Assembly (NCBI GenBank): GCA_040218735.1
Contig: JAVJQW010000011.1
Location: 192,001 to 256,000 of the forward strand
Origin: Deltaproteobacteria bacterium
GTDB taxonomy: Bacteria; Myxococcota; Kuafuiibacteriia; Kuafuiibacteriales; Kuafuiibacteriaceae
DNA length: 64,000 nucleotides
Direction of reading: 5' to 3'
Position 1 is the stretch's first letter, and each line of letters opens with the position of its first letter. Of the stretch, positions 1,891-33,237 are shown piece by piece. The notes under the pieces were generated by a model, which was given only the letters and a program-made list of their open reading frames with translations, did not search any database and had not been told where the DNA came from. A program made the translations under genes and the position numbers.

Positions 1891-2517
1891 TCAGCGGTCG
1901 CCGCCGCGCGGGGTGAGCAGCTCGTCCTCGACGGACGTGCGCACCGTCTTGTCCCGCATCGAGACCACGCGGGGCTCCGGCTCCCGCACGTCGTCCGTGA
2001 GGTCCGACGCGATGCCGGCGCGCGAGCGGTGACGGAGCAGCGAGTGCATCTGCGCCTCGCCGCTGCCCTCGCGCTCGCCCATCGCGTCGAGGAGCTTGCT
2101 GTGCGACGAGATGATCGACCGGAGGCTCGCCTCGAACTGCGCCTTCTGGCGCCGCAGCTCGTCGATGTCCTCCATGATCCGCACGAGGCGTGTGTGGGCG
2201 TTCTGGATGATCTGCTCCGCCTGCGACTCCGCCTGCGCGATGACGATCTCCGCCTCTTTGCGCGCGTTGTGTTTGATGTCCTCGGTGATCTGCGTCGCGG
2301 TGATCATCGTCTCCTTGAGCGTGCGTTCACGCTCGCGGTGCTCGTGGATCTCCGCCTCCTTGCGCTTGAGGTCTTCGCGCAGGCCGTTGTTGTCACGCAC
2401 CAGCCGCTCGACGTCGTTCGCGAGGACGTCCAGGAACGCGTCGACCTCGCGCGTGTCGAAGCCCCACAGCGTCGTCCGGAACTGCTGCTGCTGAATGTCC
2501 AGCGGGGTGAGCTTCAT
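1891..2517 (-). CDS. divIVA: DivIVA domain cell division protein
   Basis: MKLTPLDIQQQQFRTTLWGFDTREVDAFL N-terminal signature plus long coiled coil. Confidence 0.93.
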   Translation of the reverse strand: MKLTPLDIQQQQFRTTLWGFDTREVDAFLDVLANDVERLVRDNNGLREDLKRKEAEIHEHRERERTLKETMITATQITEDIKHNARKEAEIVIAQAESQAEQIIQNAHTRLVRIMEDIDELRRQKAQFEASLRSIISSHSKLLDAMGEREGSGEAQMHSLLRHRSRAGIASDLTDDVREPEPRVVSMRDKTVRTSVEDELLTPRGGDR

Positions 2518-29675: not shown

Positions 29676-30383
29676 TCAGCGCGCGGATTCGAGGCGCCAA
29701 TCGACCAGCGCCCACTCGACCCACGCGCACGACCCGACGGCGCTCGTCAGGTGGAAGAGCGCGTGAAGTTGGAGCGCCTGCAGCGGGTGGTCACAGGCGA
29801 GCACGAGGTGCTCCGGTACCCAGAGCACCGCGAAGCCCCCGACGTAGGCGAGCACGGCGACGAAGAACCAGCGGCGTCGATCGCCATCGCCGCGCAGCGA
29901 GAGCGCGCCGGTGCGGGCCACGATGTACGCGACGATCAGCGCGTAGCTCACGATGAAGAACTGGAACCACTCCGCGAACGCGACGTACGCCACCGTGAAC
30001 GCGACGCCGTATCCGGCGAGCGCAGACGCGACGCCGCGACGGACGCTCGAACGACGCGCCGCGAGCGCGTAGACGAACGTGAGGCCGGTGTAGATCATCG
30101 GGAGCTCGTCGGCGGCCTGCGAGACCCTCAGCAGCGTTCCGTGGAACAGCGCGGAACCCAGGCCCACCACGGCCACCGCGAAGGCCGCCGCGGCGAAGCG
30201 CGGCTTTGCCTTCCACGGCAGCCGTCGAGCGCGCAGCAACACCACGACGGCGAGTGCGACGATCGCGAAGCTCGACCACGTGTTCCACCACTCCGCGACG
30301 TAGGTGGAGTACACGTAGTTGGGCTCGCACCAGTCGACGTTGGACGGCGCGCCGAACCCATCCCAGTAACCGCGCTCACCCAT
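29676..30383 (-). CDS. alkaline ceramidase (CREST superfamily, ACER/Ypc1-like)
   Basis: GYW...VDWCEPNY...AEWWNTWSS, GLGSALFHGTL, DELPMIY, QLHALFH; 7 TM. Confidence 0.9.
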   Translation of the reverse strand: MGERGYWDGFGAPSNVDWCEPNYVYSTYVAEWWNTWSSFAIVALAVVVLLRARRLPWKAKPRFAAAAFAVAVVGLGSALFHGTLLRVSQAADELPMIYTGLTFVYALAARRSSVRRGVASALAGYGVAFTVAYVAFAEWFQFFIVSYALIVAYIVARTGALSLRGDGDRRRWFFVAVLAYVGGFAVLWVPEHLVLACDHPLQALQLHALFHLTSAVGSCAWVEWALVDWRLESAR

Positions 30384-30466
30384 CGCCGGACACTCTTGAC
30401 ATATTCGGGGGACATCTGGCACGCGCGCGCACGCGTCTTACTTACTCAGTTCGACGCACGTAAGTA

Positions 30467-30595: not shown

Positions 30596-30721
30596 ATGAG
30601 CCAAGCCAAGTTCATCGTCTGGTCAATGCGCTCCCCTGTGCAGAACGGATTGCACCTCGGGCTGAGCAACGCGGTTGCGTGCCGATACGACGGCACCGCC
30701 GGGACCGACCCCCTGAGCTGA
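30596..30721 (+). CDS. leader peptide, 41 aa (MSQAKFIVWSMRSPVQNGLHLGLSNAVACRYDGTAGTDPLS)
   Basis: GAGAGGAG RBS before ATG; stop 28 nt before a terminator; last codons complementary to the terminator 5' arm. Confidence 0.7.
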   Translation: MSQAKFIVWSMRSPVQNGLHLGLSNAVACRYDGTAGTDPLS

Positions 30722-30749
30722 CGGTCTACAACGACGTCGGCGCGCCAGG

Positions 30750-30786
30750 AGGCCGGGTCCCCACTTCGGGTACCCGGCCTTTTTTC
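30750..30786 (+). terminator. Rho-independent terminator/attenuator
   Basis: AGGCCGGGT-CCC-CACTTC-GGG-T-ACCCGGCCT followed by TTTTT. Confidence 0.85.
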
Positions 30787-30861
30787 GTTTCTCCCAAGAC
30801 CCGCGGGTCGCCGACGCTCTCCACGCCCGGCCTCCCGCTTCAACGAAGAAGGAGGTGCGCC

Positions 30862-31098
30862 GTGGCGCACGAGACCGACCGCAACCGCGAACGCCTCGAC
30901 GCCGAATACGAGCGTCTGCGTCGCTACTCCGACTACCGCGAGTTCGTTCGCGGCAAGCGTGACGGACGCCTCGGCTACCCGATCGCGGGGATCTCGGAGA
31001 TCTACATCGAGGGGTACATCCTCGGCCGCATGGTGGCGGAGCGCGCCCGACGCGACACCCCGCGGTTCACGATCAGCCCGGCCCGCCGGATGAGCTGA
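30862..31098 (+). CDS. 78-aa small protein, possible Rmf/CrpP-like fold
   Basis: AAGGAGGT RBS before GTG; FVRGKRDGRLG...YIEGYILG two-helix pattern. Confidence 0.7.
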   Translation: MAHETDRNRERLDAEYERLRRYSDYREFVRGKRDGRLGYPIAGISEIYIEGYILGRMVAERARRDTPRFTISPARRMS

Positions 31099-31116
31099 TC
31101 GAAGAGAAGTCGCGGC

Positions 31117-31189
31117 GCGAAGGACGATGGCACGCAGCGAGTCTTCCCGGACTCCACGCCCGCCGGTGCAACGCCGGCCCTTCGCGCCG
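31117..31189 (+). ncRNA. tRNA-like element 1 (degenerate)
   Basis: 7-bp acceptor GCGAAGG/CCTTCGC (extendable to 12 bp), stem GAGTC-TTCCCG-GACTC, T-arm GCCGG-TGCAACG-CCGGC; no D stem; ends GCCG. Confidence 0.6.
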
Positions 31190-31207
31190 CTCGAAACAAG
31201 AAGCTCT

Positions 31208-31272
31208 CGAGGTCATGGCCACGCGTGTAGGCGCGTCGTCTTTCTGGGTGCGAAACGCACCCAGAGGCCTCG
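31208..31272 (+). ncRNA. tRNA-like/three-way-junction element 2
   Basis: 7-bp closing stem CGAGGTC/GGCCTCG, hairpin ACGCGT-GTAG-GCGCGT, stacked hairpin TCTGGGTGCG-AAA-CGCACCCAGA. Confidence 0.45.
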
Positions 31273-31311
31273 CACCGTACGAAGGAAGACAGATTCAGGG
31301 AGGTGACACCG

Positions 31312-31857
31312 ATGGAGACGCTCGTGCTCTCACACACGTATCAGCCACTGGACCGCATCGGGTGGCAGCGCGCCATCACGCTGTGGGTCCTCGACAAGGT
31401 CGAGATCCTCGAGTCGTACGACGACAAGACGATCCGCTCCGTGTCCATGGCCATCGAGATGCCCGCGGTCGTGCGCTTCGTGCACGCGGTCCGCATCCGC
31501 ATCGGCCACCCGCGCTTCTCCCGCGAGAACGTCTTCGCCCGTGACCACGGGCGCTGCCAGTACTGCGGCAAGAAGCTGACCCGTCAGACCTCGACGTACG
31601 ACCACGTCGTGCCGCGTCGCCTCGGCGGCCTCACGCGGTGGGACAACATCGTCATCGCGTGTCTGACCTGCAACCAGCGTAAGGGTGGTCGCACGCCCTT
31701 GCAGGCCGGAATGAAGCTGCGCTCGCAGCCCGTCCGACCCAAGTCGCTGCCGTCGACGTTGCGCTTCACACTTCCGGCGCCTGACAAGGTTCCGGTCCCG
31801 TGGCGCCAGTACTTCTACGACCTGACGTACTGGCATGGCGCGCTCGACGAGTCGTGA
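31312..31857 (+). CDS. HNH endonuclease (McrA-like)
   Basis: GGGAGGTG RBS; LVL..TYQPL, FSRENVFARD..RCQYCG, TYDHVVP, WDNIVIACLTCNQRKG. Confidence 0.95.
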   Translation: METLVLSHTYQPLDRIGWQRAITLWVLDKVEILESYDDKTIRSVSMAIEMPAVVRFVHAVRIRIGHPRFSRENVFARDHGRCQYCGKKLTRQTSTYDHVVPRRLGGLTRWDNIVIACLTCNQRKGGRTPLQAGMKLRSQPVRPKSLPSTLRFTLPAPDKVPVPWRQYFYDLTYWHGALDES

Positions 31858-31874: not shown

Positions 31875-31910
31875 GCCGCGGCGCTCCTCGCTCACGGGGG
31901 GCGCCGCGGC
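31875..31910 (+). other. 16-bp GC hairpin without U tract (processing/stability element)
   Basis: GCCGCGGCGCTCCTCG-CTCA-CGGGGGGCGCCGCGGC. Confidence 0.6.
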
Positions 31911-31915
31911 CCTGC

Positions 31916-31992
31916 TACCGCGAGACATCCGGGGATCGGCGCGTTCACTGCCACGTGACCGCGCGAGGCGGGTTCGACTCCCGCCGCGGGGT
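31916..31992 (+). ncRNA. tRNA-like element 3 (pseudo-tRNA, Gly GCC-like loop)
   Basis: Canonical T-arm GCGGG-TTCGACT-CCCGC; acceptor CCGCG/CGCGG; stem GCGCG-T-TCAC-TGCCAC-GTGA-C-CGCGC; weak D arm, no CCA. Confidence 0.6.
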
Positions 31993-32073: not shown

Positions 32074-33237
32074 GTGACGGTGTCGAGCGAGCTGATCCTG
32101 GGTATCGACTTCGGTACGTCGTTTTCGTCCGTGGCCGTGTGGCTGGACGGGAAGATGTACGTCGTTTCTGACCAACGCGGCGAGCCCTGCGTCCCGAGCA
32201 TCGTCAACTACCCCCGACGCGGCGAACCGCTCGTCGGCGCCCGCGCCGAGCAGGTCCGCGCCAAGGACCCGACCAACACCATCTGCAGCGTCAAACGCAT
32301 CCTCGGGCGCGCCTACGACAGCCCCGAGCTCCGGATCTTCGATGCGAACAACGCCGTCCGCACCAAGAAGGCCCCCCGCGGCGGTATCCAGCTCATCACC
32401 GACGCAGGCCCCGTCTCGCCGGAGCAGGTCGCCGCCGACATCTTCCGCCACCTGAAGGCCCTCGCCGAGCGCCGCTTCGGCCGCTCCGCGAGCAAGGCCG
32501 TCATCACCGTCCCCGCGTCCGCCACCCGCGCCGTCGAGGACGCCACACAACACGCCGCGAAGTGCGCCGGCCTCGACGTCGTGCGTGTGCTGAGCGAGCC
32601 GTCCGCGGGCGCCATCGCAAACCAGCTCGATCGCTTCGAAGGCGAGCGCCGCATCCTCGTGTACGACTTTGGCGGCGGCACCTTCGACGTCACGATCCTC
32701 GAGCAGCGCAACCAGGAGCTCTTCACCCGCGCCATCGCCGGCGACGCCTGCCTCGGCGGCGACGACCTCGACCACGAGCTCGCTTCGATCGTCTCCGGCC
32801 ACATCTGGAAGAAGTCGCGCACCGACGTCACGAAGGACGCCGTCCGCTGGGAGCGCATCATCCGCACCGCGGAGACCGCCAAGCGCGGCCTGTCCGCACG
32901 CGACGAGGTCCCGTTCCGCGTCGACGACGCCTACGCCTCACGCGGTCGCCCGACCCGGCTCGAGCTCAACCTCACCCGCAACGACGTGGAGCCGCGGTGG
33001 AAGCCGCTCGTCGATCGCGCGAACCGCCTCGCCGCGAAGACCATCATCCACGCGAACCTCCACCCCTCCGACCTCGACGTCATCCTCCTCGTCGGCGGCA
33101 CGACCTACGTCCCGCTCGTACGCCGAACCGTGCACTCCGTGCTCAAACGCCCCGGAATGCACGAAGGTGATCCGCTCACCGCCGTCGCACGCGGCGCCGC
33201 CCTCGTCGCCGCCCGCGCCCTGGACCTCGCCGCCTGA
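32074..33237 (+). CDS. Hsp70-family protein, nucleotide-binding domain only
   Basis: GIDFGTS, AVITVPA, SEPSA, VYDFGGGTFD, LVGGTT, AVARGAA then stop; 387 aa. Confidence 0.9.
   Translation: MTVSSELILGIDFGTSFSSVAVWLDGKMYVVSDQRGEPCVPSIVNYPRRGEPLVGARAEQVRAKDPTNTICSVKRILGRAYDSPELRIFDANNAVRTKKAPRGGIQLITDAGPVSPEQVAADIFRHLKALAERRFGRSASKAVITVPASATRAVEDATQHAAKCAGLDVVRVLSEPSAGAIANQLDRFEGERRILVYDFGGGTFDVTILEQRNQELFTRAIAGDACLGGDDLDHELASIVSGHIWKKSRTDVTKDAVRWERIIRTAETAKRGLSARDEVPFRVDDAYASRGRPTRLELNLTRNDVEPRWKPLVDRANRLAAKTIIHANLHPSDLDVILLVGGTTYVPLVRRTVHSVLKRPGMHEGDPLTAVARGAALVAARALDLAA

What the first reader, a model, noticed from the sequence alone, without database searches (positions are those of the whole stretch)
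31112..31190. tRNA mimic 1: acceptor + T arm intact, D arm lost, 6-nt UUCCCG loop
Seen: 12-bp closing stem whose inner 7 bp stack on a 5-bp/7-nt T arm (GGTGCAAC), 73 nt overall; the anticodon-like stem closes U-UCC-CG. Element 3 has the same geometry with U-GCC-AC, so both show a U33+Gly-like triplet in an abnormal loop. Inference: non-decoding tRNA mimic, RNase P/Z processing signal, or decoy for anticodon nucleases.
Basis: partly seen in the sequence, partly recalled or inferred. Interest (0 to 1): 0.7.

Follow-up and report, generated by a model that had tools for sequence, protein, structure and literature searches.

The report
tRNA-shaped RNA in decayed tRNA array
This 79-base hairpin cluster is a real, conserved RNA fold shaped like a tRNA that can no longer decode, left where a cluster of spare tRNA genes around a nuclease gene has otherwise decayed.

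Summary
The structure is real: 12-bp closing stem, inner hairpin with loop UUCCCG, and a second hairpin flush with the closing stem (z -3.56). It is not a tRNA: ARAGORN and Rfam find nothing.

The context explains it. The adjacent HNH gene belongs to the nuclease family embedded in long tRNA arrays: 57 of 100 homologous loci carry tRNA genes.

A covariance model built only from three other genomes finds this element as a top hit (35.2 bits, E 2.7e-4). There is one copy each in 5 of 20 genomes of the family, 0 of 131 outside it, plus one metagenome contig.

Three helices covary. Against the congener, paired bases are 46/48 identical and silent codon sites 61%, so it is under selection.

In three arrays it starts 2-4 nt after tRNA-Trp(CCA), where fuller arrays hold tRNA-Gly(UCC). 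In four of six members a U-tract follows; not here.

Best reading: an exapted array tRNA now serving as a transcript-end or intercistronic RNA structure. No expression data exist. The decoy and aminoacylation ideas are unsupported.

The scan has noted HNH/tRNA-array relics on other DNA, not this element.

The parts
30862..31098 (+). Small ORF 'SM78' (78 aa, GTG start), no known family. It is the gene that precedes the element.
   Evidence: tblastn finds homologues upstream of the HNH gene or array in L002, L004, L010, L006 and L109, 44-77% identity. No Pfam, NCBIfam or PHROGs match.
31112..31190 (+). Element 1 (el1): tRNA-shaped three-way junction, the finding itself.
   Evidence: Fold. Model R2, built without this genome, hits 31117-31185 at 35.2 bits, E 2.7e-4. 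Covariation.
31112..31123 (+). 5' strand of the 12-bp closing stem, pairing with 31179-31190. The inner 6-7 bp are the part shared with the other family members.
   Evidence: Identical in the congener G001.
31139..31154 (+). Anticodon-arm-like hairpin, loop UUCCCG. The loop core UCYC is shared by all six members.
   Evidence: One U-A to C-G double change against G001. 3 of its 6 pairs show double changes across six sequences.
31162..31178 (+). T-arm-like hairpin flush with the closing stem, loop UGCAACG (family consensus UGCAANG).
   Evidence: 2 of its 7 pairs show double changes.
31179..31190 (+). 3' strand of the closing stem. It is followed by UCGAAAC, with no U-tract.
31206..31275 (+). Element 2: Y-shaped structure with closing stem CGAGG.../...CCUCG, between el1 and the HNH ribosome-binding site.
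   Evidence: The same fold appears in five genera. RNAalifold finds 9 of 27 pairs with double changes.
31312..31857 (+). HNH endonuclease gene (181 aa) of the family embedded in tRNA arrays.
   Evidence: Pfam HNH_5 and HNH. tRNA genes flank homologues in 57 of 100 loci and 23 of 72 loci. A plasmid homologue lies in a 28-tRNA array.
31916..31992 (+). Element 3: near-tRNA relic with canonical T arm GGCGGG-UUCGACU-CCCGCC, in the slot where closer arrays hold tRNA-Ser.
   Evidence: ARAGORN calls it at 90% thresholds. Best Rfam family is tRNA-Sec, 14.2 bits, E 1.3. T stem shows a compensatory G-C to A-U change in G001.

Best explanation
Element 1 is this genome's copy of a small, lineage-restricted family of tRNA-shaped RNA structures. 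The family lives inside the HNH-type long tRNA arrays of one Myxococcota family. It most likely descends from an array tRNA; by position, the tRNA-Gly(UCC) that follows tRNA-Trp(CCA) in fuller arrays. It has lost its D arm, its normal anticodon loop and the standard T-loop, so it no longer decodes. What has been kept is the fold: closing stem, middle hairpin with a UCYC loop, and a T-like hairpin stacked on the closing stem. In four of six members the closing stem is followed directly by 4-7 U. The likely ancestral job is therefore to end the SM78/tRNA-Trp transcript as a branched intrinsic terminator. In this genome and its congener the array tRNAs are gone, the U-tract is lost and the closing stem has grown to 12 bp. 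Here it most likely acts in cis on the RNA as a very stable intercistronic or 3'-UTR structure between SM78 and the HNH gene (pause or weak stop, exonuclease barrier, or processing site). Shown: the fold, its family, covariation, purifying selection and the array context. Inferred: tRNA descent, the terminator role, and what it does in this genome.
For: Real and stable: z -3.56 here and -5.97 in the congener.

Family membership was tested reciprocally. Model R1 (G000 + G001) picks out L025 and L006 (E 0.07-0.09 in 274 kb). Model R2 (L025, L006, L005 only) returns G001 (45.1 bits, E 2.2e-6) and the window (35.2 bits, E 2.7e-4) as the best non-training hits in 334 kb.

Distribution: one copy per genome in 5 of 151 genomes, all within the one family (4 of 19 plus own), and 0 of 131 outside it. 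The refined model R3 gives the same 5 of 20.

Covariation on six sequences: 95.4% of cells paired against 86.2% shuffled; 6 of 19 pairs and 13 cells with double changes; slid controls at most 3 cells. RNAalifold predicts the same three helices.

Selection against G001: paired sites 46/48 identical, with the two differences forming one compensatory pair. Unpaired sites are 20/31 identical and four-fold codon sites 186/307 (0.606). P(>=46/48) = 1.8e-8.

tRNA-like architecture: the next-best hits of R1, R2 and R3 are true tRNAs aligned over the full length.

Slot: the element starts 2-4 nt after tRNA-Trp(CCA) in L006, L025 and L109. tRNA-Gly(UCC) follows Trp in 10 of 15 rows, which is 10 of the 11 where a tRNA follows within 40 nt.

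U-tract in G007, G015, L025 and G006. The chance of >=4 T in 6 bases is 0.007 per site at this genome's T content.

Array context of the HNH gene: and papers PMC8421152, PMC5966550 and PMC12803027 (passages read).
Against: No expression data. The two RNA-labelled runs cover only part of the HNH coding region, at 90-99% identity, and not the element.

The element fails every tRNA test, so tRNA descent rests on position and shape. ARAGORN at default, 90% and 80% thresholds gives nothing; a call appears only at 70%, among 20 calls in 1.7 kb. No tRNA-clan Rfam hit at E<=10 even on 93 nt.

Global alignment to 423 unique array tRNAs shows no preference for Gly(UCC).

Folding energies of the three other members tested are unremarkable (z -0.7 to -1.5).

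This genome's copy has no U-tract, while a nearby hairpin at about 30745-30790 does end in a T-run. A U-less hairpin is therefore a doubtful terminator here.

There are only six sequences, and two pairs are congeners. The alignment used for counting was fitted to the model.

Two strains about 2% diverged show no listed change inside the element. Only about 1.6 changes were expected and 47 differences were not displayed, so this says nothing.
Confidence: 0.5

Rival explanations
1. Regulated leader. Together with element 2, el1 forms a cis-regulatory attenuator in front of the HNH gene (and, in fuller arrays, the downstream tRNAs). A tRNA-binding factor or the state of translation decides whether transcription reads through.
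For: The element sits upstream of the HNH gene in all members where both are on one contig. A U-tract follows in four of six. Element 2 is conserved in five genera directly before the HNH ribosome-binding site or its tRNA-Leu. In Anabaena the array and its HNH gene are co-induced by translation inhibitors (PMC8421152, passages).
Against: In Anabaena that control works through promoter repeats and a repressor, not an RNA leader (PMC8421152 passages; PMC10272220 abstract). No alternative antiterminator pairing was sought or seen. The HNH gene occurs in 14 of 20 genomes of the family but el1 in only 5, so the HNH gene does not need it. The copy in this genome has no U-tract.
Confidence: 0.15
2. 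Trans-acting tRNA mimic. The element is cut out as a stable small RNA of about 70 nt that engages tRNA-handling proteins (RNase P/Z, CCA-adding enzyme, a synthetase, an anticodon nuclease) as decoy or regulator.
For: It has tRNA topology, with closing stem plus T-like arm forming a 12-14 bp stack in the short-stem members. A conserved GG lies in the 5' junction of 5 of 6 members, where a D loop would lie. Long tRNA arrays are discussed as possible anti-defence devices (PMC12803027, passages).
Against: There is no encoded CCA and no conserved discriminator base. The loop length varies from 6 to 9 nt and the triplet is not conserved. This genome's 12-bp stem leaves no single-stranded leader at the predicted RNase P site (inference). 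No YrlA, tmRNA or viral tRNA-like hit was found. No small-RNA reads exist.
Confidence: 0.12
3. DNA-level element. The inverted repeats act as a protein-binding, recombination or cleavage site, for instance a target of the neighbouring HNH nuclease, and RNA folding is incidental.
For: The closing stem is a perfect 12-bp inverted repeat, 100% conserved between congeners. HNH and SegB-type nucleases of tRNA clusters are thought to cut in or near tRNA genes (PMC8421152 discussion passage). Indels abound around the element: a 66-71 nt block is present or absent between el1 and el2.
Against: Compensatory changes keep pairing while the sequence changes in all three helices, including G-U pairs that have no DNA equivalent. 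The U-tract is strand-specific and lies on the tRNA strand. The closing-stem sequence differs between genera, which is unlike a fixed protein site.
Confidence: 0.1
4. Neutral wreck: a tRNA pseudogene on its way out, with no function.
For: The locus has lost every ARAGORN-detectable tRNA. A neighbouring relic present in the congener is deleted here. 15 of 20 genomes of the family lack el1.
Against: 46/48 paired sites are identical where silent sites are 61% identical, P 1.8e-8. Unpaired sites drift at the neutral rate. Covariation spans three genera.
Confidence: 0.08

Closest known systems
[quoted passage not shown]
   Same: The HNH protein here has homologues in the same setting. One lies inside a 28-tRNA array on a Mycobacterium intracellulare plasmid (40% identity). 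One lies between two tRNA-Leu genes in Myxococcus phage Mx1 (46%). Others lie in arrays of up to about 30 tRNA genes in metagenomes and Myxococcota genomes. The papers report a conserved HNH gene with such arrays (PMC8421152, PMC5966550, PMC12803027; passages read).
   Different: This locus holds no detectable tRNA at all, only three tRNA-shaped or tRNA-derived structures. The passages I read mention pseudogenes (3 of 26 in Anabaena) but no conserved non-tRNA structure under selection. I did not read the supplementary data of these papers, including the lists of arrays by phylum.
Bacterial tRNA (Rfam RF00005; ARAGORN model)
   Same: A three-way junction with acceptor-like stem, middle hairpin and a hairpin stacked on the closing stem. 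True tRNAs are the next-best hits of models built from the element.
   Different: No D arm; loop of 6-9 nt instead of 7; T-loop UGCAANG instead of UUCRANY (consensus recalled); closing stem of 12 bp here. No hit to the tRNA clan.
Rho-independent (intrinsic) terminators
   Same: In four of six members a G+C-rich closing stem is followed at once by 4-7 U on the transcribed strand.
   Different: The hairpin is branched (two inner hairpins) rather than a simple stem-loop. The copy in this window has no U-tract, and the pattern scan lists no terminator-like site at the element.
Non-decoding tRNA-like RNAs cut from longer transcripts or used as processing signals (mascRNA of MALAT1, mitochondrial tRNA punctuation, RtT repeats of the E. 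coli tyrT operon; all recalled)
   Same: A tRNA-shaped fold inside a longer transcript, next to tRNA genes, with a non-decoding role.
   Different: No processing has been shown here. The only Rfam trace is a chance-level RtT match (12.8 bits against a gathering score of 45, E 2.4).

Membership tests
tRNA (RF00005 / ARAGORN) | Detected by tRNA models at their normal thresholds | tested here: not met
   ARAGORN finds 0 genes in the window. Rfam gathering scan finds 0. No tRNA-clan hit at E<=10 on 1.9 kb or on 93 nt. ARAGORN calls the place only at 70% thresholds, among 20 calls in 1.7 kb.
tRNA (RF00005 / ARAGORN) | D arm, and a 5-bp anticodon stem with a 7-nt loop | tested here: not met
   No D stem in the MFE or consensus folds. 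The loop is 6 nt here and 6-9 nt in the family.
tRNA (RF00005 / ARAGORN) | 7-bp acceptor stem stacked on a 5-bp T stem with a UUCRANY loop (consensus recalled) | tested here: inconclusive
   The stacking geometry is present, and the closing stem is 6-7 bp in four members. It is 12 bp here, and the loop is UGCAANG.
YrlA / Y RNA-like (RF02553), tmRNA, viral tRNA-like structures | Match to the family model | tested here: not met
   No such hit in the window at E<=10. ARAGORN finds no tmRNA.
Intrinsic terminator | G+C-rich stem followed within 0-2 nt by a U-tract | tested here: not met
   This copy and G001's are followed by UCGAAAC and CCUUCGA. Four relatives (G007, G015, L025, G006) do have 4-7 U. 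No terminator-like site is listed at 31112-31190.
HNH-associated long tRNA array (L-array) | Many same-strand tRNA genes at high density | tested here: not met
   There are 0 tRNA genes in the 64-kb window. The locus is a decayed remnant, not an array.
HNH-associated long tRNA array (L-array) | HNH endonuclease gene of the array-linked family | tested here: met
el1 family (defined here by models R2 and R3) | Significant hit to a model built without the sequence itself | tested here: met
   35.2 bits, E 2.7e-4 in 334 kb. E 0.009 against the whole 11.6-Mb genome, where it is the top hit.
el1 family (defined here by models R2 and R3) | Position upstream of the array-type HNH gene, after SM78 and/or tRNA-Trp | tested here: met

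The most novel reading that the evidence does not exclude
A tRNA gene has been exapted into a tRNA-shaped transcription switch. Nascent el1 would be recognised by tRNA-handling machinery (RNase P, CCA-adding enzyme, EF-Tu or a sensor of uncharged tRNA). That encounter would decide whether RNA polymerase stops at the closing stem and U-tract or reads on into the HNH gene and the rest of the spare-tRNA array. Induction of the array would thereby be tied to the state of translation.
Probability: 0.08. Interest if true: 0.8.

Novelty: new variant of a known kind. Interest (0 to 1): 0.45.

Why it matters
Long tRNA arrays with an HNH gene are mobile, widespread and poorly understood. They are discussed as a stress reserve of tRNAs or as anti-defence devices. 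This locus shows what is kept when such an array decays in a Myxococcota lineage. The tRNAs are lost, but the nuclease gene, a small unknown protein and two or three RNA folds remain. At least one fold, el1, is under clear purifying selection on its helices. That would be an example of a tRNA gene turned into a structural RNA signal. It gives a concrete and testable small family: six sequences, one per genome. My three literature searches found no description of such an element; the supplementary array lists of the papers cited were not read.

Tried and rejected
- **Own-genome repeat.** blastn found no second copy, so it is not a REP- or MITE-type repeat.
- **DNA search in relatives.** A search of the 20 genomes of the family with 213 nt found only the congener. 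The wider family was found only with covariance models.
- **MAFFT alignments.** Alignments of five members put the closing stems and the middle hairpin out of register. I used model-guided alignment A9 instead.
- **Isotype of origin.** Global alignment of the six elements to 423 unique array tRNAs gave no consistent best isotype.
- **Expression.** Of 24 runs listed, 20 hold the stretch or part of it and 1 is on record as RNA. Laying four runs gave cover of the element only in the two DNA runs. The RNA-labelled runs X19 and X20 covered 31302-31671 only. This is no evidence either way.
- **Strain variation.** Runs X11 and X18 showed no listed substitution in the element. The expected number was about 1.6, and 47 differences were not displayed.
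- **Coding reading.** The ORF at 31127-31306 (+) is not conserved: its ATG is absent and a 1-nt deletion follows in the congener. The ORF at 31002-31337 (-) fails the codon-position G+C filter.
- **Wider search with R3.** Over 83 and 72 further loci it found only true tRNAs and already known members.
- **Anti-Shine-Dalgarno idea.** I compared the UCYC loop with the HNH ribosome-binding sites by eye. The match is good in G001 but not here, so I dropped it untested.
- **Pxr sRNA.** The match at 30685-30790 scores 21.9 bits against a gathering score of 80, which is chance level.

Full report
**1. Is the structure there?**

Yes. Bases 31112-31190 on the + strand form three helices.
- A perfect 12-bp closing stem joins 31112-31123 to 31179-31190.
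- A middle hairpin GAGUC/GACUC closes the loop UUCCCG.
- A 3' hairpin GCCGG/CCGGC carries the loop UGCAACG and abuts the 3' strand of the closing stem without a spacer.

The minimum free energy is -45.1 kcal/mol against -33.5 +/- 3.3 for 200 dinucleotide shuffles (z -3.56; 0 of 200 fold as well). The reverse strand folds less specifically (z -2.70). The element is single-copy in its 11.6-Mb, 68.8% G+C genome.

**2. Is it a tRNA?**

No.
- ARAGORN finds no tRNA or tmRNA in the 64-kb window.
- Rfam finds nothing at gathering scores. It finds no tRNA-clan match at E<=10 on 1.9 kb or on the 93 nt around the element.
- With ARAGORN's thresholds lowered, nothing appears at the element at 90% or 80%. 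A call appears only at 70%, as one of 20 calls in 1.7 kb.

By contrast, element 3 downstream (31916-31992) is the single call at 90%. Its best Rfam family is tRNA-Sec (14.2 bits, E 1.3). That is the same model that best matches the real tRNA-Ser genes at that position in related arrays.

**3. Surroundings**

Genes were called by codon-position G+C and Pfam.

| Coordinates | Strand | Feature |
|---|---|---|
| 29676-30422 | - | ceramidase |
| 30862-31098 | + | 78-aa ORF without family ('SM78') |
| 31112-31190 | + | element 1 |
| about 31206-31275 | + | element 2 |
| 31312-31857 | + | HNH endonuclease (HNH_5) |
| 31916-31992 | + | element 3, preceded by a long hairpin |
| 32074-33237 | + | Hsp70-like gene |

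The relatives are Myxococcota by the record titles of homologous loci.

**4. The HNH gene belongs to the tRNA-array nuclease family**

- Of 41 relatives' genomes searched with the 1.66-kb region, 19 have a match, 14 of 20 within the family.
- Around the HNH homologues, ARAGORN finds tRNA genes in 57 of 100 loci. These are 20 loci from genomes, including the window's own, and 80 from metagenomes; some are near-duplicates. Many are arrays of 10-30 genes.
- In an independent set from species genomes the count is 23 of 72 within 1.2 kb, nearly all in the Myxococcota part of the list.
- A homologue on a Mycobacterium intracellulare plasmid (40% identity) sits inside 28 tRNA genes.
- The homologue in Myxococcus phage Mx1 (46%) sits between two tRNA-Leu genes.

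Published work describes this association (passages read).
- An HNH gene is conserved with long tRNA arrays in cyanobacteria and is co-induced with the array under translational stress (PMC8421152).
- An HNH gene is the most widespread coding sequence in mycobacterial tRNA array units (PMC5966550).
- A single HNH gene is embedded in all four array types of M. avium (PMC12803027).

In the closer arrays the order is ...Trp-Gly(UCC)...Leu-Leu-Leu-HNH-Ser-Ser.... The window's locus has the HNH gene but no tRNA: it is a decayed array. The genome keeps another eight-tRNA cluster without an HNH gene on contig C64.

**5. Element 1 is a member of a conserved family**

The congener G001 has it, 84% identical by BLAST, with both strands of the closing stem and the whole T-like hairpin unchanged.

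I tested membership with covariance models in both directions.
- A model from these two sequences (R1) picked out two further sites at E 0.07-0.09 in 274 kb. Both lie directly after a tRNA-Trp(CCA) inside HNH arrays: L006 (genome G007) and metagenome contig L025.
- I then built a model (R2) only from L025, L006 and a look-alike in L005 (genome G006), with no sequence from this genome or its congener.
- In 334 kb, R2's best non-training hits were G001's element (45.1 bits, E 2.2e-6) and the window's at 31117-31185 (35.2 bits, E 2.7e-4). The next hits were true tRNAs.

Against whole genomes, R2 finds exactly one copy each in G000, G001, G006, G007 and G015. That is 5 of 151 genomes, all in the one family (4 of 19 plus own), and 0 of 131 outside it. 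A refined model (R3, from six sequences) gives the same 5 of 20 and no new member in 155 further loci.

The family so far has six members in three genera plus one metagenome contig.

**6. The fold is supported by covariation and selection**

On the model-guided alignment of the six (A9):
- 95.4% of pair cells are standard pairs, against 86.2 +/- 1.7% after shuffling (0 of 500 shuffles reach it).
- 6 of 19 pairs and 13 cells carry changes on both sides.
- Sliding the partners by 1-3 columns leaves at most 3 such cells and under 48% pairing.
- All three helices contribute.
- RNAalifold predicts the same three helices on that alignment.

Caveats: there are only six sequences, two pairs are congeners, and the alignment is fitted to the model.

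Independently, I compared this genome with its congener.

| Site class | Identical |
|---|---|
| Four-fold degenerate codon sites in three flanking genes | 186 of 307 (0.606) |
| Unpaired sites of the element | 20 of 31 |
| Paired sites of the element | 46 of 48 |

The two differing paired sites form one U-A to C-G exchange. P(>=46/48) = 1.8e-8, and paired against unpaired gives Fisher P 4e-4. The helices are under purifying selection, so a neutral pseudogene is unlikely.

Against this, the folding energies of the three other members tested are not unusual for their composition (z -0.7 to -1.5).

**7. What it looks like and where it sits**

Shared features:
- a closing stem that starts G-C, C-G, G-C in five of six members;
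- a 5' junction with GG followed by CGC in five of six;
- a middle hairpin whose loop holds UCYC (UUCCCG, CUCCCC, GUCCCGG, UUCUCG, AUCUCGG, CUUCUCCAA);
- a short 3' junction;
- a hairpin with loop UGCAANG stacked on the closing stem.

In G007, G015 and L025 the element begins 2-4 nt after tRNA-Trp(CCA). Among 15 Trp(CCA) genes in the collected arrays (12 distinct sequences), the next tRNA is Gly(UCC) in 10. That is 10 of the 11 cases in which a tRNA follows within 40 nt. Three are followed by el1. The el1-bearing arrays show no Gly(UCC) in the stretches held.

So el1 occupies the Gly(UCC) slot, and its loops look like a disturbed CUUCCAA loop. G006's CUUCUCCAA differs by two inserted bases. 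This is positional inference only: overall sequence comparison to 423 unique array tRNAs gives no isotype preference.

**8. What it probably does**

In G007, G015, L025 and G006 the closing stem is followed at once by 4-7 U on the tRNA strand. At this genome's T content, >=4 T in 6 bases has probability 0.007 per site. A G+C-rich stem plus a U-tract is the signature of an intrinsic terminator. The likely ancestral role is therefore to end the SM78-tRNA-Trp transcript, or to attenuate read-through into the Leu-HNH-Ser part.

In this genome and its congener three things differ.
- tRNA-Trp is gone: only 13 nt separate the SM78 stop codon from the element.
- The U-tract is gone.
- The closing stem has been lengthened by five pairs.

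A nearby hairpin at about 30745-30790 does end in a T-run, so this organism does use U-tract terminators. I therefore do not expect efficient termination here. The strong selection on the stems then points to another cis role on the RNA: a 3'-end-protecting or pausing structure after SM78, or a processing site that separates SM78 from the HNH message. This last step is inference; no read data cover it.

**9. Rivals**

- A regulated leader acting with element 2.
- A trans-acting tRNA mimic.
- A DNA-level inverted repeat, for example a nuclease or recombinase site.
- A neutral wreck.

Evidence for and against each is given in the Rival explanations section. The decoy and aminoacylation reading has nothing in its favour beyond shape.

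**10. Comparison and novelty**

The setting, a long tRNA array with an HNH gene, is known. A conserved, selected, non-decoding tRNA-shaped element inside such arrays, surviving the loss of the tRNAs, did not turn up in the passages I read. It also did not turn up in three full-text searches:
- 'tRNA array' + 'tRNA-like' + 'terminator': 0 papers;
- 'tRNA gene cluster' + 'Myxococc': 0 papers;
- 'tRNA array', 'pseudogene', 'tRNA-like': listing only.

Supplementary array catalogues were not read.

Earlier notes of this scan describe HNH/tRNA-array relics on other DNA. None concern this element, and no look-alike sequence is on record.

I class it as a new variant of a known kind: a tRNA-derived structured RNA. 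Interest is moderate. The evolutionary story is neat and testable, but the family is tiny and its function is unproven.

Noticed in passing
window 31206-31275 (+); also L002 2206-2274 (-), L005 1309-1377, L004 1417-1484, L010 1943-2013 (-): Element 2 is a Y-shaped RNA fold: 7-bp closing stem CGAGGNC/GNCCUCG and two hairpins, the second flush with the closing stem. It lies just upstream of the HNH ribosome-binding site. It folds the same way in five genera although the hairpin sequences differ completely. A similar CGAGG...CCUCG structure is visible by eye in L025 before the HNH gene. It has no Rfam match and is more widespread than element 1.
   Followed up: partly
window 31916-31992 (+), preceded by a 16-bp hairpin at about 31875-31910: Element 3 is a near-tRNA with a canonical T arm, in the slot where the closer arrays carry tRNA-Ser. 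The congener keeps the acceptor and T arm (one compensatory change) but has a wholly different middle hairpin.
   Followed up: partly
L002 about 2275-2344 (-); run X18 record 3 laid on window 31190-31207: The congener carries an extra block of about 66-71 nt between elements 1 and 2. It forms an acceptor-like stem, a small hairpin and a canonical T arm (GGGAGG-UUCGAAU-CCUCCC). A contig in one metagenome run has 71 letters at the same joint. The block is absent in this genome.
   Followed up: partly
L004 about 1355-1395: In genome G004 the SM78 homologue is followed by an 11-bp hairpin with a perfect T-loop (UUCGACU), i.e. an acceptor/T-arm minihelix with nothing else of a tRNA. Element 2 follows it.
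   Followed up: no
window 30862-31098 (+): The 78-aa protein SM78 has no Pfam, NCBIfam or PHROGs family. It recurs next to these arrays in six genomes, before tRNA-Trp in G007 and G015. Its function is unknown.
   Followed up: partly
own genome, contig C64:30235-31297: This is a second cluster of eight tRNA genes (Tyr, His, Phe, Arg, Leu x3, Ser) without an HNH gene. It is interleaved with repeated copies of tRNA 3'-end fragments. It is preceded by a hairpin with T-run that resembles the one at window 30745-30790.
   Followed up: no
L008 299-539, L011 878-1120, L018 1938-2229, L111 2408-2481 and others: The tRNA-Leu genes next to the HNH gene are only 74-79 nt by ARAGORN, too short for the long variable arm that bacterial tRNA-Leu normally has (recalled). 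Several score low or match the tRNA-Sec model best.
   Followed up: no
L020 41-169 and 969-1101; L018 2632-2761: Rfam tRNA matches span 129-133 nt over the full model. These are array tRNA genes that seem to carry inserts of about 55-60 nt.
   Followed up: no
L137-L139, L141-L143 (Corallococcus genomes): In six cultured Corallococcus genomes a tRNA-Trp(CCA) gene ends about 15 nt before the HNH homologue (55% identity), with no other tRNA within 1.2 kb. This could be a tractable model for the nuclease.
   Followed up: no
window 30596-30721 (+) and 30685-30790: A 41-codon ORF with coding-like G+C at third positions is followed by a hairpin with T-run. The stretch gives a chance-level match to the Myxococcus Pxr sRNA model (21.9 bits, gathering score 80).
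   Followed up: no
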